From a bacterium (GTDB taxonomy: Bacteria > Patescibacteriota > Minisyncoccia > Phycocordibacterales > UBA2100): a DNA stretch of 62,484 nucleotides. The position numbers were made by a program, and so were the translations under genes. The DNA lies in NCBI GenBank assembly GCA_030647655.1, contig JAUSJH010000018.1:1-62484 (forward strand), read 5' to 3'. Under the pieces are notes generated by a model that had not been told where the DNA came from, made no database searches, and saw only the letters and a list, made by a program, of their open reading frames with translations. Numbering within the stretch: the first letter of the stretch is position 1; every line of letters starts with the position of its first letter. Shown here piece by piece: positions 19,705-62,484 of the stretch.

Positions 19705-21111
19705 TTAGTTGCGCGTAATTACGATGCGCGGAGCACTGCCATCCTTAGCGCGTGTGAGCACCATCGAATCAGTTGTCCCGATGCGAGTTGTCTCTACAGG
19801 CTGTGCCTCAAAGACCCTAAGCGCATCCACAAGATGCGCCGGGCGATCGCTTAGCGATATAGCTGGGAGATTCTGGAGGGGCGAGAGTGTCGGTTCGACA
19901 GGAGCTACGGCAACTACCGGAGTTTCCATTCTTACAACTTCCCTCTTTGAGCTTCCGAGCATCGCTCCGGCGAGCGCGAATGCGCCACCTTTGTAGTAGA
20001 CCAAGAGGTAGGCGCCGGCGGCTGCGAAGGAGAGCATCGAGAGCCAGTACATCGCGTTCCCTACCGGACCGAAATCGAAGCCGGTGTACGGGATCTGTGA
20101 GAGCGAGACGTACGAAGAGGTCGGAGTGTAGCGGAAGCTAGTCTGGCACGTGTTCGTACCACCTGGGCCCGTTACCGTCATCGTATAGATGGTGTTGCCA
20201 GTCGGGTACACCGCCCTCGTTCCGTAGGTCGAAACAGAACCAACGTTCGGGCTGATGTAGGCCGACGTCGCGTTCCCCGATGTCCAACTCAAGGTCGCCA
20301 ATTGGTTACTGTAGGAACCGTAATTGCCACTGGCGTTGTTTGAGATGGTGATTGTGCAGTACGGCTGGGGTTGCGTGTACGTCGGGGGGGTCGGGTACGT
20401 GGGATAGGTTGGGTAGACGTACTGGATCGGGTACGTGGTCTGGGTCTGCGAGACCGGCGTGACCACTGATACCGTGTTCGTGTTGACGTTGTTGTTATTG
20501 TTCGTGTTGGTGTTCACGATGTTAATCGGCTGCGCTGGATGCTGTTGCTGTTGCTGTTGCTGTTGTTGCTGCTGTTGCTGTTGCTGCGGCTGTTGCTGTT
20601 GCGGCCGTGGGTACGAAGGAGCGTAGTAGTTAGACGGCGCGCTGAAGGAGAACGGTCGCGAGGGAGAGTAACTTGAGCCGCCGCAACTTCCACATCCGCC
20701 GCCGCTGTAACCACAGTTCGAACCACAACCATAGTCGCGCTCCGAGTAACCTACTCCGTCTTGGACCGTGTACGTCTGATATGTGTCATACGTGTCATAA
20801 ACGTCGTACGCGTCCCATGCGTCATAGGTGTAATCGATGGAATCCGTATAACTCGGGTAGTAAGCATCGTACGTGTAGTCGATGGAGTCGGTGTAGCTTG
20901 GGTAGTAAGCATCGTACGTGTAGTCGATGGAGTCGGTGTAGCTTGGGTAATACGAACCGTATGTGTAGTCGATTGATTCGACATAACTTCCCGAGCAGTA
21001 ATCACACCCATAGCCTTCTTGTGCGAAGACTTGCGGTGCCGCTACCACAAAAAGACACATTATCATTACGGCAAGAATCCCGACACGCACACTATTTTGT
21101 AATGTATACAT
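19705..21111 (-). CDS. secreted low-complexity surface protein with IPYTG motif + transmembrane helix (candidate sortase substrate)
   Basis: Signal peptide, YDAYYPSYTDSIDYT repeats, Gly/Cys stretch, poly-Gln, Asn-rich tract, small Ig-like domain, LSQIPYTG then hydrophobic helix ending in YYK. Confidence 0.8.
   Translation of the reverse strand: MYTLQNSVRVGILAVMIMCLFVVAAPQVFAQEGYGCDYCSGSYVESIDYTYGSYYPSYTDSIDYTYDAYYPSYTDSIDYTYDAYYPSYTDSIDYTYDAWDAYDVYDTYDTYQTYTVQDGVGYSERDYGCGSNCGYSGGGCGSCGGSSYSPSRPFSFSAPSNYYAPSYPRPQQQQPQQQQQQQQQQQQQQQHPAQPINIVNTNTNNNNNVNTNTVSVVTPVSQTQTTYPIQYVYPTYPTYPTPPTYTQPQPYCTITISNNASGNYGSYSNQLATLSWTSGNATSAYISPNVGSVSTYGTRAVYPTGNTIYTMTVTGPGGTNTCQTSFRYTPTSSYVSLSQIPYTGFDFGPVGNAMYWLSMLSFAAAGAYLLVYYKGGAFALAGAMLGSSKREVVRMETPVVAVAPVEPTLSPLQNLPAISLSDRPAHLVDALRVFEAQPVETTRIGTTDSMVLTRAKDGSAPRIVITRN
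20855..20944. repeat. intragenic 45-bp tandem repeat (2 exact copies, degenerate flanking copies)
   Basis: gggtagtaagcatcgtacgtgtagtcgatggagtcggtgtagctt x2. Confidence 0.9.
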
Positions 21112-22593: not shown

Positions 22594-23076
22594 TCAATAC
22601 CGCGGCAGAGACGTGCGCACTTCGCCGGTCCGCCGGTTGACATACACGGTCCGCTCGGATCCCGGAACGATGTGCGTCCGGAGGGATCCCGGAACAATGT
22701 GCGTCCGGAGGGATCCCGGAACAATGTGCGTCGCGGTGGTCTTGCGGGGCTGTTGGCGAGTCTGCCTACCATGGGCGTCTTGCCTCTGCCCATGACCACG
22801 CATGTCGTGACGGGCGTGACCACGATTTGCGCGATGCGCTGGCGCCGCGTGACGATACGGGCGATGCGATTTCGCGTGACTGCGCTTTGCGCGATGCGCT
22901 GGCGCTACGTGACCGCGGTAGACGTTGCGGTCCTCGTAGGTGTTGATGGGGCTGCCATAACGCGGTTCGCCCTTGCGGAACACTTTGTCCTCGTAGGTGC
23001 CTGAGAAGGCGGTGGCCGGAGCGAGCGAAAGTGTGGCGCCGATCAAGGCGAGTGATAGAACGACTCTTTTCAACAT
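22594..23076 (-). CDS. secreted His/Arg-rich hypothetical protein with THIVPGS(L/E)R tandem repeats
   Basis: Signal peptide; AGGAGG SD; 27-bp repeat x~3 at 22657-22732. Confidence 0.75.
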   Translation of the reverse strand: MLKRVVLSLALIGATLSLAPATAFSGTYEDKVFRKGEPRYGSPINTYEDRNVYRGHVAPAHRAKRSHAKSHRPYRHAAPAHRANRGHARHDMRGHGQRQDAHGRQTRQQPRKTTATHIVPGSLRTHIVPGSLRTHIVPGSERTVYVNRRTGEVRTSLPRY

Positions 23077-23168: not shown

Positions 23169-23205
23169 TAGTGTGAAAAACCCAGAAAATAAGCCCCAAA
23201 TGAGA

Positions 23206-23292
23206 CTACCGAGCGAATGTGACCGCGCGCCCTATCTCGACAGCGTAGCCGATTTCTACGGGACGCGCGACCTCGACTGCATGAGCGATGGT
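23206..23292 (-). pseudogene. 3' remnant of a paralogue of the His-hexapeptide repeat gene
   Basis: Translates TIAHAVEVARPVEIGYAVEIGRAVTFAR*, 22/28 identical to the C-terminus of 23900-24505. Confidence 0.8.
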
Positions 23293-23305
23293 GAAGGGAA
23301 TGAAA

Positions 23306-23587
23306 TCATCGATCTTGCGCGCCATGAAAAATACCCAGAATGACAACCTCTCTGCCCTTTCGGCTCAATTCATACACAATCACGTAAGGCAATCCTTTTA
23401 CCAAAAGTTCATGGGTATTTCTTGCAGCGCCAATCCGGCCCATTCGGGGAAAGAGGCCGATTGAACGAACGGTGAGATGGATACGGACAACGATTCCGAC
23501 TGCCGCGGACGGATTGCGCCCTTTGACATATGTGTATATTTCGGCAACATGCCGACGAGCTTCAAGTGTGTACTGCGGACCCTTCAT
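23306..23587 (-). CDS. RelE/ParE-family toxin
   Basis: YTLEARRHVAEIYTY...FPRMGRIG...HELLVKGLPYVIVY...VVILGIFHGAQDR; ATGA overlap with upstream small gene. Confidence 0.85.
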   Translation of the reverse strand: MKGPQYTLEARRHVAEIYTYVKGRNPSAAVGIVVRIHLTVRSIGLFPRMGRIGAARNTHELLVKGLPYVIVYELSRKGREVVILGIFHGAQDR

Positions 23588-23817
23588 AGACCGCAGCTCT
23601 TCCAGAGCGCGGTCATTTCTCGCTTTGTCGCAAGACGTGTTTTGCCGGTGTGCAGATTGCGTTGAATTCGTTTTACTTCCCTGACCTGTTCGTCCGTAAG
23701 ATGATAACCCCCGTTACCGCTCGTCATATGGACGAACAACGCCTCCGCAGCCGCATCCTGATTTTCGGCGGGAAGTTCCCGGAGCTGTTCGATCGCCTGT
23801 TCAAGCAACTTGGTCAT
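23584..23817 (-). CDS. putative antitoxin (addiction-module type)
   Basis: 77 aa, MTKLLEQAIEQLRELP...LTDEQ, translationally coupled upstream of the toxin. Confidence 0.75.
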   Translation of the reverse strand: MTKLLEQAIEQLRELPAENQDAAAEALFVHMTSGNGGYHLTDEQVREVKRIQRNLHTGKTRLATKREMTALWKSCGL

Positions 23818-23899: not shown

Positions 23900-24505
23900 T
23901 TAGCGGGCGAATGTGACCGCGCGACCTACTTCAACGGCGTGGGCGATTTCGACAGGACGCGCGACTGAAACTGGGTGAGCGATAGAGACCGAGTGGGCGA
24001 TGCTGACAGGATGCGCGATGTTGACCGCGTGAGCGATCTCCACCGGATGAGCTATATCGATAGGGCGACCGATAGCGTCAGCTTTGATGGAGGCAATGTC
24101 TACGGCGTGAGCGATGTCTACGATGTGGCCAATATCGACGGGACGCGCGACATCGACGATGTGCCCTACTTCAACCGGATGAGCGATGTTGACGGGATGT
24201 GCGATGAACACAGGGTGCGCTACAGAAACAGGATGAGCGATGTTGACGGGATGTCCGACGTTCACGACGTGGCCCACGCTCACGGGATGGCCCACGCCAA
24301 CGGAGTGCCCGACCGATGCCGGGTGTCCGACAGAGGCGGGATATCCTGCCGAAAATGGATGTCCGATGCTAACGGGCTCCGCGATGGAGACCGGATAGGC
24401 AATCACGCATCCACACGTTGCCGCAGAGACGATTTGTGCAGGGTCTATAAGAGACCCACCTAGGACAGCTACGCCAAGCGCGAGGAGAAGCGTCCTTTTT
24501 TGCAT
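23900..24505 (-). CDS. secreted His-rich hexapeptide-repeat protein (predicted beta-solenoid)
   Basis: Signal peptide, CGC, ~26 repeats of [IV][AG]H[PA]V[SNED]; alternative start at 24526. Confidence 0.8.
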   Translation of the reverse strand: MQKRTLLLALGVAVLGGSLIDPAQIVSAATCGCVIAYPVSIAEPVSIGHPFSAGYPASVGHPASVGHSVGVGHPVSVGHVVNVGHPVNIAHPVSVAHPVFIAHPVNIAHPVEVGHIVDVARPVDIGHIVDIAHAVDIASIKADAIGRPIDIAHPVEIAHAVNIAHPVSIAHSVSIAHPVSVARPVEIAHAVEVGRAVTFAR

Positions 24506-24533: not shown

Positions 24534-25253
24534 TTAGAGCGAGCCAATGAAATCCGCCTCGACGATGAAGCGTGCGCTCTTACCGGTCAGTGTGTCGCAC
24601 GTGACGAGCGTGAGCTTCGTCCCCTGTGTGGGCGAAAGGTCTATCGTCGTATCGCCCACATCAACGCTGCGTACGGAGGTTACGCTGTAGAGATAGTTTT
24701 TGCCTTTACCCTCGAGCGTAATCGTATCGCCCACGGAAAGTTCCGGCGCTCGATTGAAAGCCTTATACATTTGGTTTTTCACGACCGGCAAGTGCGACGA
24801 GTGGCCGAAGATGAGAACGTTCCCTTCCTCGCCGAGACGCGCGGAATCGACGTAGCGAATGGGCCCTTTCTTTAGATATTCATCCAGTACGGAAAGGTCG
24901 CGACTTTCGATATTTTGCACCGGCAAATCGAGGTCGATGGCCGAGATTTTGATGCGCTCGGGCAACGTCGTCTCTACAGGTGTCGCGGTTTTGGATGTGA
25001 CAATTTCTTCACCAAGTTCCGGCAGATCTGAGAGCGCAAGTGTCTCTGTTCTCACTCCGCCGTAAGCGGAGACCGGCTCGGTTCCACTTGTGGTGAGCGA
25101 TCCGCCAGCTGGCGGAGAACCATCTATGTAGTACGGTACGAAACCGATAGAATCCGCGACGGAGACCGCGCAGAAAAATACCATTACGACGGCGGCAAAA
25201 AACACCCGCTTCGGCGGTCTTTCGTGAACTTGATATTGAGGACGTGTACTCAT
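24534..25253 (-). CDS. sortase
   Basis: N-terminal TM, RIKISAIDLDLPV, GNVLIFGHSS (His), TLVTC (Cys), ARFIV (Arg) catalytic triad. Confidence 0.9.
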   Translation of the reverse strand: MSTRPQYQVHERPPKRVFFAAVVMVFFCAVSVADSIGFVPYYIDGSPPAGGSLTTSGTEPVSAYGGVRTETLALSDLPELGEEIVTSKTATPVETTLPERIKISAIDLDLPVQNIESRDLSVLDEYLKKGPIRYVDSARLGEEGNVLIFGHSSHLPVVKNQMYKAFNRAPELSVGDTITLEGKGKNYLYSVTSVRSVDVGDTTIDLSPTQGTKLTLVTCDTLTGKSARFIVEADFIGSL

Positions 25254-25363
25254 AGAGAGCCGCGATAGTACACTATAAATATACCTTTGTCAATCCCACT
25301 CTTTCGGAATAAATAATGGGCGGGATTGACAAAGAGCAAGATATATGTAAGTATACCGATAAT

Positions 25364-26320
25364 ATGGCAGAACAGGTGCACACAGAGACCCGCACAACCA
25401 CACACACGCAAGTAGAGCAGAGGCAGAGCATGCTTTCCAACGTCCTCGCGATTATCGGCTTCATCATTCTCATTGTCATCGTGCTCTGGGGTCTTTTCCA
25501 CATCGCCTCTCTTAGTCAGCCGTGGCTCTCTTCCCTCTTCAAGAAGGCAGCTCCTGCACTCACGGTTACCATTCCCTCAAACGCGATTTCTGGAGATTCC
25601 ATCACCGTAAGCTGGAAATATTCGACACCCGAGAAGGGTATGTACGCGTTTTTGTACCAGTGCAAAAATAATTTTCGTTTTGAAACAACGGGTAACGCCT
25701 CTGCGATTCCCTGCGGTGCGGCATATGCCATTCAAACGACAAGCAACACGGTGGGCGTTACGCCAACCCTCTCCGGCACGGCCTCTACGAGCGTCCCCGT
25801 TTCTGTCATCTTCATACCAAGCGCGACAAGCTCGAAGCAGGCACAGGGAACTGCAACAGTCGTCGTGCATCCGAAAGTTGTGACGATGACTCCGGTGGAG
25901 CCAGCACCCGTAACTCCTGCAAAACCGGTAACCCCGACGCCGGTCAACCGCGGCCCTGCCGATCTCTCCGTCAGCATTATCTCCGTCACGTCGGACGGTT
26001 CGGGCAACGCGGTCGCGACCTTTGATATCGGCAACGTCGGCGGGAACGCTTCGGGCTCGTACTACTTCACCGCACAGCTTCCGATGAACGGCGGCTACAC
26101 ATACACTTCTCCCGTCCAATACTCGCTTGCGCCCGGTGACCACATCGTAAACACCCTGCGCTTCGCGCAAGCAGTATCCGGAAACGTCTCCGTCGTTGTC
26201 GACCCGCAGAATATGGTGAGCGAGTCGAGCGAGAGCAACAATTACACCTCGCAATTTCTCAACACGCCCTACAACTACAACCAGCCGTACTATCCAAACC
26301 AGTACCCGTACGTGTACTAA
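25364..26320 (+). CDS. membrane-anchored CARDB-domain protein
   Basis: N-terminal TM; Pro/Thr linker; ADLSV...IGNVG...LAPG...VVVDPQNMVSESSESNN CARDB pattern; Tyr/Pro-rich tail. Confidence 0.8.
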   Translation: MAEQVHTETRTTTHTQVEQRQSMLSNVLAIIGFIILIVIVLWGLFHIASLSQPWLSSLFKKAAPALTVTIPSNAISGDSITVSWKYSTPEKGMYAFLYQCKNNFRFETTGNASAIPCGAAYAIQTTSNTVGVTPTLSGTASTSVPVSVIFIPSATSSKQAQGTATVVVHPKVVTMTPVEPAPVTPAKPVTPTPVNRGPADLSVSIISVTSDGSGNAVATFDIGNVGGNASGSYYFTAQLPMNGGYTYTSPVQYSLAPGDHIVNTLRFAQAVSGNVSVVVDPQNMVSESSESNNYTSQFLNTPYNYNQPYYPNQYPYVY

Positions 26321-58542: not shown

Positions 58543-58773
58543 CTAAACAGTAATGACGTGTACGCTCACGCTTGACGCAGTCCCAGCAACATCTTCCGTC
58601 TTCTGCTCCGCAAGGCACGCCTCCGTCGCTTCGCGCACGTTCAGAAGTGCCTCCTCCATGTTTTTGCCTTGACTATAGCAACCAGGGATTGCGGGATTCG
58701 TAGCAACAAAGAAGCCCCCATCGTCTTTCTCAACGATGATTGGAAATGATTGTGTGCTACGGATTCCTTTCAT
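58543..58773 (-). CDS. hicB: HicB-family antitoxin (short, no DNA-binding domain)
   Basis: IIVEKDDGGFFV..PAIPGCYSQGKNMEEALLNVREA. Confidence 0.88.
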   Translation of the reverse strand: MKGIRSTQSFPIIVEKDDGGFFVATNPAIPGCYSQGKNMEEALLNVREATEACLAEQKTEDVAGTASSVSVHVITV

Positions 58774-58826
58774 GATGGCAGTATACCCCCGCGAGATAAT
58801 AGTTTCAATGCACCACATTATATACG

Positions 58827-61800
58827 CTACGGGGTGGTTGAGATCGCGCTTCCAGTATCGGTGCCGCTCCCCCCATCAGCGGGCGGGGTTTCGGATGGCG
58901 GAGGTGTAGGAGCAGGAGCAGGAGCGAGCTCTGGTTGTGGCGCTGGTTCAGGTGCGGGCGTTGGCTCCGGTGCAGGAGTCGGAACGGGGGCTGGCACTGG
59001 TTCCGGGGAAGGTTCTGGTGCAGGCGACGGCTCTGGCGCAGGGGTGGGGGCCGGAGCGGGCTCTGGTGTTGGAGCGGGTGCGGGTGAAGGTTCAGGAGCC
59101 GGAGCCGGCGCAGGTGGGGTTGATGTCGCGTCCGTAGGAGGAGGAGTGCTTCCGCCGGCACCTCCGGCACCGCCCGTGTCTCCGGCCTGCGGCGGCGCGC
59201 TCTGCGCGCCGCCGCTCCCACCGCTTCCGCTTCCCACATTCCCCGAGTTGCTACCCGCCCCTGCCGCAAGCAATGAATCGAGTTGTACCTTGGTGATGCA
59301 GGTCTCCCCGCCTTCGCCCGAGACGCAAAGCTTGTCGGTGTGCACTTCTTTGGCGAAGACTTTCTCAAAGATGCCGGTCGCGGCGTAGAGCGCTTCTTTA
59401 AACGCGCGAATCACTATGTCGCCGAGACCGGAAATCGCGCTCTTCAGTCCATCCGACGCATCAGTAAATGATGCGTACCACGGCGTCGACGATGCAAATT
59501 GCTCTCTCGGCGTCGTGGTCGCGCTCACCAATTCCCCCGCCGATGTCGTCGCAAGAAGCGGCTGGACCTCTAGATTGAGTTCTTGTATCGCCTTTATAGT
59601 CGGAGAAACAAGGGCCTGATATTGAATCCCCCACGGGTCTACATGCGGGTCCGCGCCGCCAACGTGGACGAACTGGGGAAAGACATCGTAAAGTTCTTGA
59701 GCGATAAGGCCTGTCTTCCGGCCCTCCTCCCCTTCGAAGTTGAAGTCAACAACGTGGATATTCATAAGATTGGCGAGCGAGGAGGAAGTATTCGTAATAT
59801 CGGATTTCAAGCGGACGTCCGAGGGGATAACACATCCACCAGTTGTTGCACCGCGAAGAGAGCCGTTGGAATCTACGATACACACACCTCGATTTCCATT
59901 GTTATCAGCCGAAAGACCGGAAAAGGCCACTGGGCCAGTTGCCGTAAGATTGAGCATACCTGTGATTGAACCGACACTATTTATGGTAAGCGCTCCGCCT
60001 CCAAAAGTTGCAACACCGGTATTGGAGATCGACCAGTCAGTGCTGCCATCGCTAATCGTATTGCTGAAATTAGCTGCGGTCGCAATAATTGTGCCGGTAA
60101 AGGTGGGAGAAGCCGAAAGCACCATGTTGCCCGTTCCCGTAACCGCGTTGGAAAGTGTAACGCCGCCGTATTGTAAGGTGCCATTCGTACCTCCTGCCGT
60201 AGACGCGCCGATAACTACATTTCCACCGACTGAGAAAAGTTTTGATGGTGATGTCGTCCCGATGCCGACGTTGCCGGAAGAGTCAATGCGCATGGCTTCG
60301 GCAGGGCCGCTCCCTGTTCTGAAAACAATGTCTCCTGTTGTAGTCCCATTGTCAAAATAGAAGTCTGGGTCGGATTTCTTGCCGCCCAAAATGCGCATCC
60401 CGACCGCGCCGAGCTCACCGTTAAAGATAAGGGAATTATAGCCGTTGGAAGTGCCAATTATTTGTAAGTCCGTTTCAGCTCCAGTTGATACTACAAATTT
60501 CGATCCCGGTGTTGTGGAGCCAATCCCGACGTTGCCGCCATTCGCAATCGTGAGATACGTCGAGGTGGCATAGACATCGGTTGACGTACCGATTTGGAGA
60601 CTCCCGAGGACCGAGCGGAACGTCCAGTGTTTTGCGTTTACCCCCGCAAGGGTGTCGGTCAAGGTGAGCTGGCCGCGGAAGGTTGAATCTGCGCTCGTGG
60701 TGGCGAATTGTGCGGGCCAGTAGGGAGAGGTGGTGCCGACACCGATGCGATTTGCTCCGTTGAGGAAGATGCCGAAGACATCATTTGTCGAAGATGCCCA
60801 CTTGGAATTGGGGCCAGCTCCTCCACCGTCATCAACTTCGCATCCGAAGTTACCCGCTGTCCACGTCAGCACATTGTTTGACGAACAGTCTATAAGACCG
60901 TCGGCAAAGAAGTCAGAAGTGGAAGCGACACCGGAAACAGTGAGCGCGGTGGATGAGGCATACGGGAATCTGTTGGCGACGAGCCCTGTGGAGTAGAACG
61001 TGAGAGCTGTGGGAGTGGTCGTTGCGCGAAGCGAGCCACCTGCATCAATCCACGGCAAGACACTTGCAAGTCCGGCACTCGAGAAAATTGCGTTTCCTGT
61101 GATTGTCATGTTGGTCGTCGTGGCGTCTGTCGAGCTCGCGTTGACCATTCTCAAATTGGTAATCGTCGAAGTGCCGGAGTTCACGATGATGCCGCCTGTG
61201 AACGAGAGACGGGTCGAGGTGGCGTCAGATGGGAAGGGCCATGAGTAGCCATTCTTGTTGTTGAAGGTCGTCCAGTCGGTGGAGGAGAGACAGCCCGCGG
61301 CGCTTCCGCTTCCGACGGTGCAGTCGACGGCCAAAGCGCCGCCCACCGCAGAGCGTCCCGCCGTGACCGTGATGCCGTTCGTACCCGAGACGGTTCCTGT
61401 CGCGACAGAGGAGAGATTGCCCGTGCCGTTGCCGTATATGAGTTGGGAGGAGGTGAAGGTGTCGACACCGGTACCACCCTTTGCAACAGCGAGAGTGCCC
61501 GTGATATTCGCAAGTGTCGTCGTTGCGACCCACGAAGACGCTCCGTCGATGAAGGTGAGGACGTATCCGGGAGTGCCGACGCCGAAGAATGTTGACGTGG
61601 CGATGGAGCGGGCGTCCCCCGTTGAACCGGTCTGGTTGCCGAGGATGCTCGCGGCGGCGACTTGGGCGAGATTGGCAAACGGAAGGTCGCCCGTGACGTC
61701 GAGGGTGAGGTCAACCGTGGCACAGGTCGCCGCACCTGCTCCGTTGAGACTTCTGACAAATTGATTGGTGCAGGAGGCACCGGCGTATTCGGATAGCGTT

Positions 61801-62484
61801 CCTCCTGCGTCGGCAAGCGGAATGGCGGAGGTAATCCCTTGAAGGATGGTGGTTCCTGTGATTGTCATGTTTGTCGTCGTGGCGTCCGTTGCAGAAAAGC
61901 GTGAGCTGTTCAAGAGTCCTGTGGTAGTGGCGTTGACCGACTTCAATGAAGTCGTTTCAAGAAAGCCTGTTGTCGTCGCGTTGGTAGCGTACAGAGAGGT
62001 GGCGAAGAAGCTCGTCGTGGTTGCGTCGGTGCCGTATATGCGGGTGAACTTGGCGTCGGTTCCTTCGAGTTTGAAGATAGTCGAGCTCGCGGTGGTGGAG
62101 GTGGCGTTGAAGTACGGAGCGGCAATCTTTGTCCACACTTCGAGTCCTGCGGCAAAGGTGGAGGTGGCGGTGGATTCAACGGCGATTGGGACGGTCGAGG
62201 TGGGACGTATCGCCTGCACACCGAAGAGGTTGGAAAACTGACTCCATGATTCTCCGAATCCTCCGATACAGGTGCCATTGAGTGACCAGCATCCTGCCGT
62301 CAGATTCACTCCGTTCCCGAAACTGGAGGTCGCGGTACTCGATACATACAGGGCTTTGGAAAGTGTGGTGGAGGCGTTGGTGAGGGTCAAGATGGTGGAA
62401 GTAGAATTCAGGGCATCAGAGGTGGTGCCGATGGAGAAGACTCCCGAGGCGGAGGTGAGGTTCCAGTGCTTCAGGTTCACGCCT
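58827..62484 (-). CDS. giant Thr-rich tail-fibre-like surface protein with peptidase S74 (intramolecular chaperone) domain; partial, 5' end beyond window
   Basis: ATST/NATTT repeats, GNVGIGTTSP repeats, PSDVRLKSDI...GLIAQEL...IQYQAL..PTIKAIQEL, Pro-Ala-Glu-Thr tail; frame open at right edge. Confidence 0.88.
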   Translation of the reverse strand, partial: GVNLKHWNLTSASGVFSIGTTSDALNSTSTILTLTNASTTLSKALYVSSTATSSFGNGVNLTAGCWSLNGTCIGGFGESWSQFSNLFGVQAIRPTSTVPIAVESTATSTFAAGLEVWTKIAAPYFNATSTTASSTIFKLEGTDAKFTRIYGTDATTTSFFATSLYATNATTTGFLETTSLKSVNATTTGLLNSSRFSATDATTTNMTITGTTILQGITSAIPLADAGGTLSEYAGASCTNQFVRSLNGAGAATCATVDLTLDVTGDLPFANLAQVAAASILGNQTGSTGDARSIATSTFFGVGTPGYVLTFIDGASSWVATTTLANITGTLAVAKGGTGVDTFTSSQLIYGNGTGNLSSVATGTVSGTNGITVTAGRSAVGGALAVDCTVGSGSAAGCLSSTDWTTFNNKNGYSWPFPSDATSTRLSFTGGIIVNSGTSTITNLRMVNASSTDATTTNMTITGNAIFSSAGLASVLPWIDAGGSLRATTTPTALTFYSTGLVANRFPYASSTALTVSGVASTSDFFADGLIDCSSNNVLTWTAGNFGCEVDDGGGAGPNSKWASSTNDVFGIFLNGANRIGVGTTSPYWPAQFATTSADSTFRGQLTLTDTLAGVNAKHWTFRSVLGSLQIGTSTDVYATSTYLTIANGGNVGIGSTTPGSKFVVSTGAETDLQIIGTSNGYNSLIFNGELGAVGMRILGGKKSDPDFYFDNGTTTGDIVFRTGSGPAEAMRIDSSGNVGIGTTSPSKLFSVGGNVVIGASTAGGTNGTLQYGGVTLSNAVTGTGNMVLSASPTFTGTIIATAANFSNTISDGSTDWSISNTGVATFGGGALTINSVGSITGMLNLTATGPVAFSGLSADNNGNRGVCIVDSNGSLRGATTGGCVIPSDVRLKSDITNTSSSLANLMNIHVVDFNFEGEEGRKTGLIAQELYDVFPQFVHVGGADPHVDPWGIQYQALVSPTIKAIQELNLEVQPLLATTSAGELVSATTTPREQFASSTPWYASFTDASDGLKSAISGLGDIVIRAFKEALYAATGIFEKVFAKEVHTDKLCVSGEGGETCITKVQLDSLLAAGAGSNSGNVGSGSGGSGGAQSAPPQAGDTGGAGGAGGSTPPPTDATSTPPAPAPAPEPSPAPAPTPEPAPAPTPAPEPSPAPEPSPEPVPAPVPTPAPEPTPAPEPAPQPELAPAPAPTPPPSETPPADGGSGTDTGSAISTTP

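What the first reader, a model, noticed from the sequence alone, without database searches (positions are those of the whole stretch)
23900..24505. Secreted hexapeptide beta-solenoid with a histidine ladder, next to sortase
About 26 near-perfect hexapeptides match the [LIV][GAED]xx[STAV]x pattern of left-handed beta-helices, with His at position 3 in 19 of them and often Pro at position 4. Stacked rungs would line up His residues on the edges: a possible metal-binding, pH-responsive or self-polymerising fibre. It has no acyltransferase domain and no LPxTG, so its link to the upstream sortase is open (a CGC motif follows the signal peptide).
Basis: partly seen in the sequence, partly recalled or inferred. 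Interest (0 to 1): 0.7.

Follow-up and report, generated by a model that had tools for sequence, protein, structure and literature searches.

The report
Sortase-linked secreted His-rich hexapeptide-repeat protein
An uncultured ultra-small groundwater bacterium (Kaiserbacteria, CPR) encodes, directly after its sortase gene, an exported 201-residue protein made of 26 six-residue repeats with a histidine in 19 of them; the gene pair is conserved and undescribed, but its fold and role are unproven.

Summary
Minus strand 23900-24505 encodes a signal peptide, a CGC motif and 26 hexads (P-V-x-I/V-A/G-H). All 19 His sit at one repeat position and 17 of 18 Pro at the next. The periodicity is far beyond chance, and third codon positions are scrambled, so the repeats are old and selected as protein.

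The sortase link holds. A sortase lies immediately upstream in all 8 metagenome loci that carry a close relative. A secreted hexad-repeat protein follows the orthologous sortase in about 38 of 70 assessable Kaiserbacteria-like species genomes. The repeat flavour (AHPV, GYPV, SYPTG, SVPTS) tracks the sortase tree. The sortase's likely true substrate is a nearby protein with an invariant IPYTG signal plus a membrane helix; the hexad protein has no sorting signal.

The fold is not settled. However, two AlphaFold2 runs gave pLDDT 40 and 48 with no strands. Pro or Ala also occupies the position where the LbH sequences aligned here have Asn or Gly.

His is not conserved among relatives, where Tyr, Arg, Thr or Ser take its place. 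The "ladder" is therefore a lineage-specific decoration.

Verdict: a new, fast-evolving CPR surface-protein family of beta-solenoid type, function unknown.

The parts
23900..24505 (-). Gene for the exported hexapeptide-repeat protein (201 aa plus stop), P0001
   Evidence: Relatives in the same orientation after a sortase.
24422..24505 (-). Signal peptide, residues 1-28: MQKR, a hydrophobic core, then VSA|A
   Evidence: Read directly from the sequence. The same N-terminal architecture appears in all relatives. The cleavage site is inferred from the -3/-1 rule.
24407..24415 (-). C31-G-C33, the only two Cys of the protein, at the mature N-terminus
   Evidence: CxC or Cx3C is found at this place in 17 of 44 family members and is absent in 15.
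24089..24394 (-). Hexad array 1: 17 hexads, residues 38-139
24065..24088 (-). Eight-residue break (IKADAIGR) holding K141, the only Lys of the mature protein. It corresponds to the 'DLYGPGKLFAL' break of close relatives.
23903..24064 (-). Hexad array 2: 9 hexads, residues 148-201, ending ...GRAVTFAR
   Evidence: The C-terminal AVTFAK/R ending is shared with L009, L029, L036, L042 and L049.
24534..25253 (-). Membrane-anchored sortase (239 aa) with invariant His151, Cys219 (TLVTCD) and Arg228
   Evidence: Pfam Sortase 8.4e-19, 68 bits against a cut-off of 26.6. Alignment A2. No NCBIfam sortase class reaches its cut-off.
25265..25293 (-). Promoter-like site (TTGACA-17-TACTAT) just before the sortase ATG. 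No such site lies between the sortase and the hexad gene.
   Evidence: This is a consensus match only; the number of matches is no higher than in shuffles.
25316..26320 (+). Divergently transcribed N-terminally anchored protein with a CARDB domain, a conserved neighbour of the sortase
   Evidence: Pfam CARDB 1.6e-7. A homologue is present in 67 of the 80 genome loci, mostly directly upstream on the opposite strand.
23584..23817 (-). ParD-like antitoxin (77 aa), part of an inserted toxin-antitoxin cassette downstream of the hexad gene
   Evidence: Identified by its position overlapping parE; it has no strong Pfam hit.
23306..23587 (-). ParE toxin (93 aa)
   Evidence: Pfam ParE_toxin 1.1e-10
23206..23301 (-). 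Remnant of a hexad-protein C-terminus (IPFTIAHAVEVARPVEIGYAVEIGRAVTFAR*) immediately after the parE stop
   Evidence: Translation. 70 of 96 nt are identical to 23900-23995.
23192..23207 (-). Terminator-like hairpin plus T-run right after the remnant's stop, probably the original terminator of the hexad gene
   Evidence: consensus match only
19705..21111 (-). Secreted Tyr/Asp- and Gln-rich 468-aa protein with SLSQ-IPYTG-FDFGP plus a membrane helix. It is the likely real substrate of the sortase.
   Evidence: The motif is invariant in homologues of 25 fetched loci, mostly a few kb downstream of the sortase and in a few upstream.

Best explanation
The gene encodes an exported, non-enzymatic repeat protein. 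It is the conserved operon partner of the housekeeping-type sortase of Kaiserbacteria-like CPR bacteria.

After signal-peptide removal, about 173 residues remain: a CGC pair followed by 26 hexads. Two aliphatic positions (Val at i+4, Ile/Val at i) and a small residue (Ala/Gly at i+1) are held constant. The i+2 position (His here) and the i+5 position (Ser/Asn/Asp/Glu) vary.

The most likely reading is a short beta-solenoid rod of the hexapeptide (LbH-like, triangular) type. As inferred, Val and Ile stack inside, while His and the polar residue point outward in rows. The rod would be about 4 nm long if there are three hexads per turn.

It is made together with the sortase, the CARDB membrane protein and IPYTG-anchored proteins. 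It probably serves as a structural or adhesive element of the cell surface. It is not itself a canonical sortase substrate.

The His rows are a lineage-specific version of a planar-residue decoration (His/Tyr/Arg in relatives). With generic pKa values, the calculated net charge moves from about -4 at pH 7.5 to about +13 at pH 5.5.

Shown: export signal, repeat anatomy, selection on the protein, operon and synteny, vertical co-inheritance with the sortase. Inferred: the fold, the surface location and the role.
For: - Repeat anatomy and statistics.
- Third codon positions are scrambled while the amino-acid pattern is kept.
- Mature-chain composition is 47% Val+Ala+Ile. Scaled hydropathy is 0.57 against a Uversky boundary of 0.42, which is unlike a disordered protein.
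- The family profile hits only LbH structures in the PDB: 38 of 38, best LpxD at 1.3e-6, in the same register. 17 of 28 members hit Pfam LbH_EIF2B and 4 of 28 hit Hexapep. P0001 weakly matches NCBIfam LpxD models over residues 32-194.
- A sortase lies directly upstream in all 8 loci that hold close relatives.
- A secreted hexad protein starts within about 30 nt of the sortase stop in most cases, in about 38 of 70 assessable species genomes.
- Repeat flavour follows the sortase tree: 21 changes against a shuffled mean of 44.6, with 0 of 200 shuffles as low.
- CARDB and IPYTG proteins are conserved neighbours.
- Similar hexad arrays form N-terminal modules of secreted enzymes elsewhere (ribonuclease, alpha/beta hydrolase).
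Against: - AlphaFold2 predicts no strands and gives low confidence: pLDDT 39.7 with a 7-sequence alignment and 48.4 with 28 sequences.
- P0001 is far below the Pfam and NCBIfam cut-offs: 20 bits against 54, and 20 against 207.
- Pro (17 of 26) or Ala, Ser, Ile or Val occupies i+3. The LbH sequences aligned have N, G, R, D or E there. From memory, that position may need a left-handed backbone conformation that Pro cannot adopt.
- The SYPTGS-type proteins in the same genomic slot put Tyr where Val would face the core, which a tight triangular helix could not hold.
- Similarity between repeat proteins can be convergent.
- Synteny among related small genomes is not fully independent evidence of a functional link.
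- About half of the related genomes lack the gene, so it is dispensable.
- There are no expression data; only DNA runs were found.
Confidence: 0.5

Rival explanations
1. It is an extended, non-globular wall-zone polymer (polyproline-II or beta-strand-like, possibly modified) that acts as a flexible spacer or brush on the cell surface. It is not a solenoid.
For: AlphaFold2 gives coil at pLDDT 40-48 in both runs. Pro recurs every sixth residue. Proteins in the same genomic slot include Ser/Thr/Pro/Gly/Tyr-rich hexads (SYPTGS, SVPTSx) that look like mucin- or extensin-type sequences.
Against: The mature chain is very hydrophobic (Val+Ile 31%, scaled hydropathy 0.57), which is unlike known disordered spacers. 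Two aliphatic positions and a small residue are strictly kept in the beta-helix register, and the profile hits are exclusively LbH.
Confidence: 0.2
2. It is an obligate oligomer or fibre: either an intertwined three-chain beta-helix stapled by the N-terminal CxC, or an end-to-end or amyloid-like polymer (an extracellular bactofilin-like filament). It folds only on assembly, which would explain why a monomer prediction fails.
For: The monomer AlphaFold2 runs failed despite a fold-like composition. A CxC pair forms the only Cys residues in 17 of 44 members. No capping domains are present at either end. The best library hit to the hexads (P0004) matches Pfam Bactofilin at 40 bits against a cut-off of 27.9.
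Against: 15 of 44 relatives have no Cys at all. P0001 and its family do not hit Bactofilin themselves. No multimer prediction could be run. There is no 18-residue super-period.
Confidence: 0.15
3. Its main job is chemical. It would be a His-rich extracellular metal store or buffer (Zn, Ni, Cu) or a pH sensor, with CGC plus 19 His as ligands.
For: The mature chain is 11% His, all at one repeat position, plus a CGC pair. The calculated charge swings by about 16 units between pH 7.5 and 5.5.
Against: His is not conserved. Orthologous proteins have 0-14 His and use Tyr, Arg, Thr, Ser or Gln at that position, so metal binding cannot be the family's conserved function. No metal transporter or chaperone gene was found among the neighbouring genes scanned.
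Confidence: 0.1
4. It is a non-canonical partner of the sortase reaction: the protein acceptor (through K141 in the conserved break, or through its N-terminal amine) onto which IPYTG proteins are ligated, or a pseudo-substrate or regulator of the enzyme.
For: The adjacency is tight and long-conserved, and the gene is co-inherited with the sortase. Lys is nearly absent from the mature chains except in the central break (GPGK / SIKA) and at the C-terminal end (TFAK, KIGK). IPYTG substrates lie in the same neighbourhood.
Against: The Lys in the break is not universal (several subtypes lack the break), and the window's C-terminus ends in Arg. An unanchored acceptor would release the product. Half of the genomes with this sortase lack the gene. 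There is no biochemical evidence.
Confidence: 0.1

Closest known systems
Left-handed beta-helix (LbH) hexapeptide-repeat proteins: LpxA, LpxD, GlmU, serine acetyltransferase, gamma-carbonic anhydrase (Pfam Hexapep PF00132, LbH_EIF2B PF25084)
   Same: Both have tandem hexads fitting [LIV][GAED]xx[STAV]x in the same register. The family profile finds only these folds in the PDB (best E 1.3e-6).
   Different: This protein is exported, has no catalytic or capping domain and is far below the curated cut-offs. Pro or Ala replaces the Asn or Gly seen at i+3. The fold is not recovered by AlphaFold2.
Housekeeping sortase loci of monoderm bacteria (class A and E sortases with LPXTG/LAXTG substrates)
   Same: There is a membrane-anchored sortase with an intact His/Cys/Arg triad. 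A nearby substrate-like protein has a PxTG-type motif (IPYTG), a hydrophobic helix and a charged tail.
   Different: The gene directly coupled to the sortase is a repeat protein with no sorting signal. The sortase fits no NCBIfam class (best is class E, 38 bits against 160). The motif is IPYTG.
Sortase-assembled pilins of Gram-positive bacteria
   Same: Both are small secreted proteins encoded next to a sortase, and Lys is rare and concentrated at a few places.
   Different: There is no LPXTG sorting signal, no pilin motif, no Ig-like (CnaA/CnaB) domain and no Pfam pilin hit.
Bactofilins (PF04519), beta-helical polymer-forming proteins with roughly 18-residue windings
   Same: Both have a hexad-like periodic pattern of aliphatic and small residues, and neither has an enzymatic domain. 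The top library hit to these hexads matches Bactofilin.
   Different: Bactofilins are cytoplasmic and right-handed, and P0001 and its family do not match the model.
Repeat-ladder beta-solenoids of the cell exterior (insect and bacterial antifreeze or ice-binding proteins with Thr ladders; silk-moth chorion hexapeptide repeats) - recalled from memory
   Same: These are short secreted repeat proteins in which one repeat position forms an outward row of identical side chains.
   Different: There is no sequence relation, the repeat lengths and ladder residues differ, and nothing was tested here.

Membership tests
LbH hexapeptide-repeat superfamily (Pfam Hexapep / LbH clan) | Tandem hexads matching [LIV]-[GAED]-X2-[STAV]-X | tested here: met
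   23 hexads match when scanned in fixed registers. In the 26 hexads, I/V at i occurs in 24, A/G at i+1 in 26, and V at i+4 in 22.
LbH hexapeptide-repeat superfamily (Pfam Hexapep / LbH clan) | Score above the curated cut-off of a family model | tested here: not met
   P0001 scores 20 bits on LbH_EIF2B against a cut-off of 54 and has no Hexapep hit. It scores 20 bits on the NCBIfam LpxD model against 207. In the family, 17 of 28 members weakly hit LbH_EIF2B and 4 of 28 hit Hexapep.
LbH hexapeptide-repeat superfamily (Pfam Hexapep / LbH clan) | Sequence-profile similarity to solved LbH structures | tested here: inconclusive
   Profile A3 against the PDB gives 38 of 38 hits as LbH proteins, with the best E at 1.3e-6. 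This is significant, but repeat-against-repeat similarity may be convergent.
LbH hexapeptide-repeat superfamily (Pfam Hexapep / LbH clan) | Three-sided left-handed parallel beta-helix fold | tested here: inconclusive
   AlphaFold2 gave pLDDT 39.7 and 48.4 with no strands. The alignments were shallow and no multimer run was possible.
LbH hexapeptide-repeat superfamily (Pfam Hexapep / LbH clan) | A turn-compatible residue (typically Asn, Gly or Asp) at i+3 | tested here: not met
   In P0001 the position holds P 17, A 4, S 2, I 2 and V 1 of 26. The aligned LpxD and 3mqg hexads have N, G, R, D or E there. The structural requirement itself is recalled from memory.
LbH hexapeptide-repeat superfamily (Pfam Hexapep / LbH clan) | An acyl- or acetyltransferase or carbonic-anhydrase active site at trimer interfaces | not testable with these tools
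   There is no non-repeat domain. The oligomeric state is unknown.
Sortase substrates (cell-wall sorting signal) | A C-terminal LPXTG-type motif, a hydrophobic helix and a cationic tail | tested here: not met
   The protein has no P.TG motif and no C-terminal hydrophobic segment, and it ends ...AVEVGRAVTFAR. The neighbouring 468-aa protein has IPYTG plus a helix.
Sortase-assembled pilins | A pilin-motif Lys, Ig-like CnaA/CnaB domains and a sorting signal | tested here: not met
   There are no Pfam pilin or Cna hits and no sorting signal. The single Lys (K141) lies in the central break.
Bactofilin (PF04519) | A match to the bactofilin domain model | tested here: not met
   There is no hit at E<=0.1 for P0001 or at E<=0.01 for the 28 family members.
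Sortase (for the upstream gene) | A sortase domain with the catalytic His, the TLxTC Cys and Arg | tested here: met
   Pfam Sortase scores 68 bits against a cut-off of 26.6. H151, C219 and R228 are invariant in A2. The class is unassigned.

The most novel reading that the evidence does not exclude
The hexad protein would be the dedicated extracellular partner of the Kaiserbacteria sortase. In this reading it is an uncapped beta-solenoid rod, stapled or polymerised through its N-terminal CxC. Its rare, conserved Lys in the central break (K141 here) serves as the protein acceptor onto which IPYTG surface proteins are ligated. That would be a two-component, LPXTG-independent surface fibre. Its outward H/Y/R ladder diversifies quickly, perhaps for host or phage interactions.
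Probability: 0.1. Interest if true: 0.8.

Novelty: new variant of a known kind. Interest (0 to 1): 0.5.

Why it matters
CPR (Patescibacteria) bacteria make up a large share of bacterial diversity, yet their cell envelope and the way they attach to hosts are poorly known. This locus is a conserved surface-building module kept at the same place next to gyrB: the CARDB protein, the sortase, the hexad-repeat protein and the IPYTG-anchored proteins. The hexad protein is its most rapidly evolving part.

If it is a beta-solenoid rod, it would be a rare case of the hexapeptide beta-helix motif used outside the cell with no enzyme attached. Its exposed ladder (His, Tyr, Arg or Thr) would be freely exchangeable. 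That matters for CPR surface biology and offers a natural scaffold for pH- or metal-responsive protein materials. If it takes part in the sortase reaction, it would extend what sortases are known to do.

Tried and rejected
- **Scanning genomes with the hexad alignment** (search for related loci) failed because no stretch was conserved enough. I used the sortase alignment instead.
- **The genome search and the fetch from genomes** were shut, so the rest of this genome could not be searched for paralogues or further IPYTG proteins.
- **Fold search** was not run, because both models are low-confidence coil and the matches would be meaningless.
- **An 18-residue super-period** (three hexads per turn) was looked for and not found. 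Identity falls smoothly at lags 6, 12, 18, 24 and 30.
- **Lipoprotein** was rejected: AATC is not a lipobox, and relatives have D/N/S-C-x-C.
- **Canonical sortase substrate or pilin** was rejected (no sorting signal).
- **An ORF artefact on the antisense strand** was rejected. The plus-strand ORF 23975-24463 is the mirror image of the repeats. The minus-strand reading has the signal peptide, the operon position and more than 40 relatives with the same architecture.
- **Recent slippage expansion** was rejected because third codon positions are randomised.
- **Expression evidence:** only DNA runs from groundwater or sediment hold the sequence.
- **Literature:** no paper in the library links Kaiserbacteria or Patescibacteria sortases to a hexapeptide-repeat protein.

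Full report
**What is there**

The reported interval is exactly one minus-strand gene, 23900-24505 (201 aa, ATG start). The product starts with a typical signal peptide (MQKR, a hydrophobic core, then VSA|A). Next comes C31-G-C33, the only two cysteines. The rest is nothing but six-residue repeats:
- 17 hexads (residues 38-139);
- an eight-residue break (IKADAIGR) that shifts the register by two;
- 9 more hexads running to the C-terminal ...GRAVTFAR.

Written as P-V-x-I/V-A/G-H, the 26 hexads have the following composition:

| Position | Residues |
|---|---|
| i+3 | Pro 17 |
| i+4 | Val 22 |
| i+5 | polar (S, D, N, E) |
| i | Ile/Val 24 |
| i+1 | Ala/Gly 26 |
| i+2 | His 19, Arg 4 |

All 19 His of the protein, and 17 of its 18 Pro, lie at these fixed positions.

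Lag-6 identity is 0.556, against at most 0.216 in 10,000 shuffles. At the DNA level the units are only 65-78% alike. Identity between units is 0.66 at codon positions 1+2 but 0.34 at position 3. The repeats are therefore old and maintained by selection on the protein.

**Neighbourhood in the window**

- Twenty-eight bases upstream on the same strand ends a membrane-anchored sortase, 24534-25253 (Pfam Sortase 8.4e-19). It has invariant His, TLVTCD Cys and Arg. It fits no NCBIfam sortase class; the best is class E at 38 bits against a cut-off of 160.
- A promoter-like site precedes the sortase, and none lies between the two genes (consensus match only).
- An N-terminally anchored CARDB-domain protein is transcribed divergently (25316-26320), and beyond it lies gyrB.
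- Downstream of the hexad gene sits a ParD/ParE cassette (23306-23817).
- Directly after the parE stop lies a 31-codon remnant, IPFTIAHAVEVARPVEIGYAVEIGRAVTFAR* (23206-23301). 70 of its 96 nt match the 3' end of the hexad gene. A terminator-like hairpin follows it.
- The toxin-antitoxin pair therefore landed in or beside an older copy of the gene's 3' end.

**Relatives**

The protein is rare in sequence space. The word-indexed search of 5.8 billion proteins found 2 relatives, and a profile search found 7. The exhaustive representative search gave 123 hits, but most are other kinds of hexad proteins.

The true relatives are 168-222 aa long. Each has a signal peptide or N-terminal anchor, often a CxC, sometimes an acidic Tyr/Glu-rich stretch, and then AHPV/AHAV-type hexads with a central break. 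In all 8 metagenome loci that carry one of them, the gene immediately upstream is a sortase.

Using the sortase alignment I fetched 80 loci from species-representative genomes. All are Candidatus Kaiserbacteria, Paceibacterota or other Patescibacteria MAGs.
- In about 38 of 70 assessable loci, the gene right after the sortase is a small secreted protein with strong lag-6 periodicity. The gap is typically 6-30 nt and the genes sometimes overlap.
- The repeat flavour differs: AHPVxI (as here), GYPVxI, SYPTGS, and SVPTSx/SVTVAx.
- On a sortase tree these flavours are clustered: 21 changes against a shuffled mean of 44.6, with 0 of 200 shuffles as low. The pair is therefore inherited together and the repeats diverge in place.
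- One large sortase clade mostly lacks the gene, so it is dispensable.
- Hexad proteins are 27-47% identical to the window's, while the sortases are about 46-72% identical in their best segments. The hexad protein is the fast-evolving partner.

**The sortase's substrate**

The hexad protein has no P.TG motif and no C-terminal helix. The 468-aa secreted protein at 19705-21111 carries SLSQ-IPYTG-FDFGP followed by a hydrophobic helix. The same motif is invariant in homologues in 25 of the fetched loci, mostly a few kb downstream of the sortase and in a few upstream of it. This is the obvious substrate. The hexad protein's link to the sortase is thus genomic (operon, co-inheritance). It is not that of a canonical substrate.

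**Fold**

Evidence for a beta-solenoid of the hexapeptide type:
- The constant positions (aliphatic at i and i+4, small at i+1) and the variable ones (i+2, i+5) are those of the LbH motif.
- A profile of 28 family members searched against all PDB sequences returns 38 hits at E<=1.
- 17 of 28 members weakly hit Pfam LbH_EIF2B and 4 hit Hexapep.
- The mature chain is far too hydrophobic for a disordered protein: scaled hydropathy 0.57 against a boundary of 0.42.

Evidence against:
- AlphaFold2 gave only coil. pLDDT was 39.7 with 7 sequences and 48.4 with 28.
- All curated models are missed by wide margins.
- Pro or Ala sits at i+3, where the aligned LbH sequences have Asn, Gly, Arg, Asp or Glu. 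From memory, that position may need a backbone conformation Pro cannot take.
- The SYPTGS-type proteins in the same slot would put Tyr in the core.

I therefore rate a beta-solenoid of some kind at about one half. The rivals are an extended spacer and an assembly-dependent fibre (an intertwined trimer or a bactofilin-like polymer). The best library hit to these hexads does match Pfam Bactofilin.

**The histidines**

The i+2 position is the family's variable, outward position. Relatives use Tyr, Arg, Thr, Ser or Gln there and carry 0-14 His. The window's protein has the most of the 44 examined. The His rows are thus a lineage-specific decoration and not the conserved function.

They still give this protein distinctive chemistry. 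With generic pKa values, the calculated charge goes from about -4 at pH 7.5 to about +13 at pH 5.5. Closely spaced imidazoles plus CGC could also bind metal. Neither property was tested.

The CxC pair is frequent (17 of 44) but absent in 15 of 44. Lys is nearly excluded from the mature chains, except in the central break and at the C-terminal end in many relatives. This is the only hint for a role as a sortase acceptor.

**What is known**

No paper in the searchable library connects Patescibacteria or Kaiserbacteria sortases with a hexapeptide-repeat protein. Earlier unchecked notes of this scan describe the same gene pair in other genomes with the same open questions. They agree with what I found here but are not independent evidence.

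Hexad arrays of a related type occur as N-terminal modules of secreted enzymes in other bacteria (a ribonuclease and an alpha/beta hydrolase). That fits a rod or stalk role outside the cell.

**Verdict**

This is a real, well-defined and undescribed CPR protein family. It is a new variant of the hexapeptide-repeat (beta-solenoid) kind in an extracellular, sortase-coupled, non-enzymatic setting. This window carries its most His-rich member. The fold and the function remain inferences. Interest is moderate.

Noticed in passing
window 23206-23817 (-): A ParD/ParE toxin-antitoxin cassette sits between the hexad gene and a diverged 31-codon remnant of a hexad-protein C-terminus (...GRAVTFAR*). A terminator-like hairpin follows at 23192-23207. 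The cassette seems to have been inserted into or beside an older gene copy and now lies inside the sortase transcription unit.
   Followed up: partly
window 19705-21111 (-); L004, L010, L012, L014, L032, L036 and others: The sorting-like signal S[LT][ST]Q-IPYTG-[FL]D[FL]GP plus a membrane helix is almost letter-perfect in 25 fetched loci. It is followed by a 30-150 residue cytoplasmic tail instead of the usual short cationic tail.
   Followed up: partly
window 24534-25253 (-), sortase residues about 74-84; alignment A2: The linker between the sortase's membrane helix and its catalytic domain carries LS[DN]LPELG[DE]E, an LPxxG-like string. It is present in 5 of 8 aligned orthologues. Not tested.
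   Followed up: no
window 22594-23076 (-): A 160-aa secreted protein has a His/Arg-rich stretch (HRAKRSHAKSHRPYRHAAPAHRANRGHARHD) and three THIVPGSLR repeats. L001 (7706-9431) carries three paralogous secreted proteins with RVF[RK]G[ST][ED]RVF repeats ending in ...CDIAVN[RH]QTGE[KR]xVIAGSC. No family match was found.
   Followed up: no
window 58830-62483 (-): A very long open frame (at least 1218 aa, running off the window) has a region of strong lag-6 periodicity (0.64). Its antisense reads as GAGSGAGVGS-type repeats (58750-59385, +). This is another repeat-rich surface-type protein.
   Followed up: no
L019, L035, L038 (just after the sortase): In some genomes that lack the hexad gene, the slot after the sortase holds a 73-74 aa protein plus a 226-231 aa protein. 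It looks like a two-gene module of unknown type. Together with the ParDE cassette in the window, this may mean the site attracts small two-gene insertions.
   Followed up: no
P0013, P0006, P0004 (library proteins): Related xVxxGRxV hexad arrays occur as N-terminal modules of secreted proteins that end in a ribonuclease domain or an alpha/beta hydrolase. They also occur in a 3172-aa protein whose hexads match Pfam Bactofilin.
   Followed up: partly
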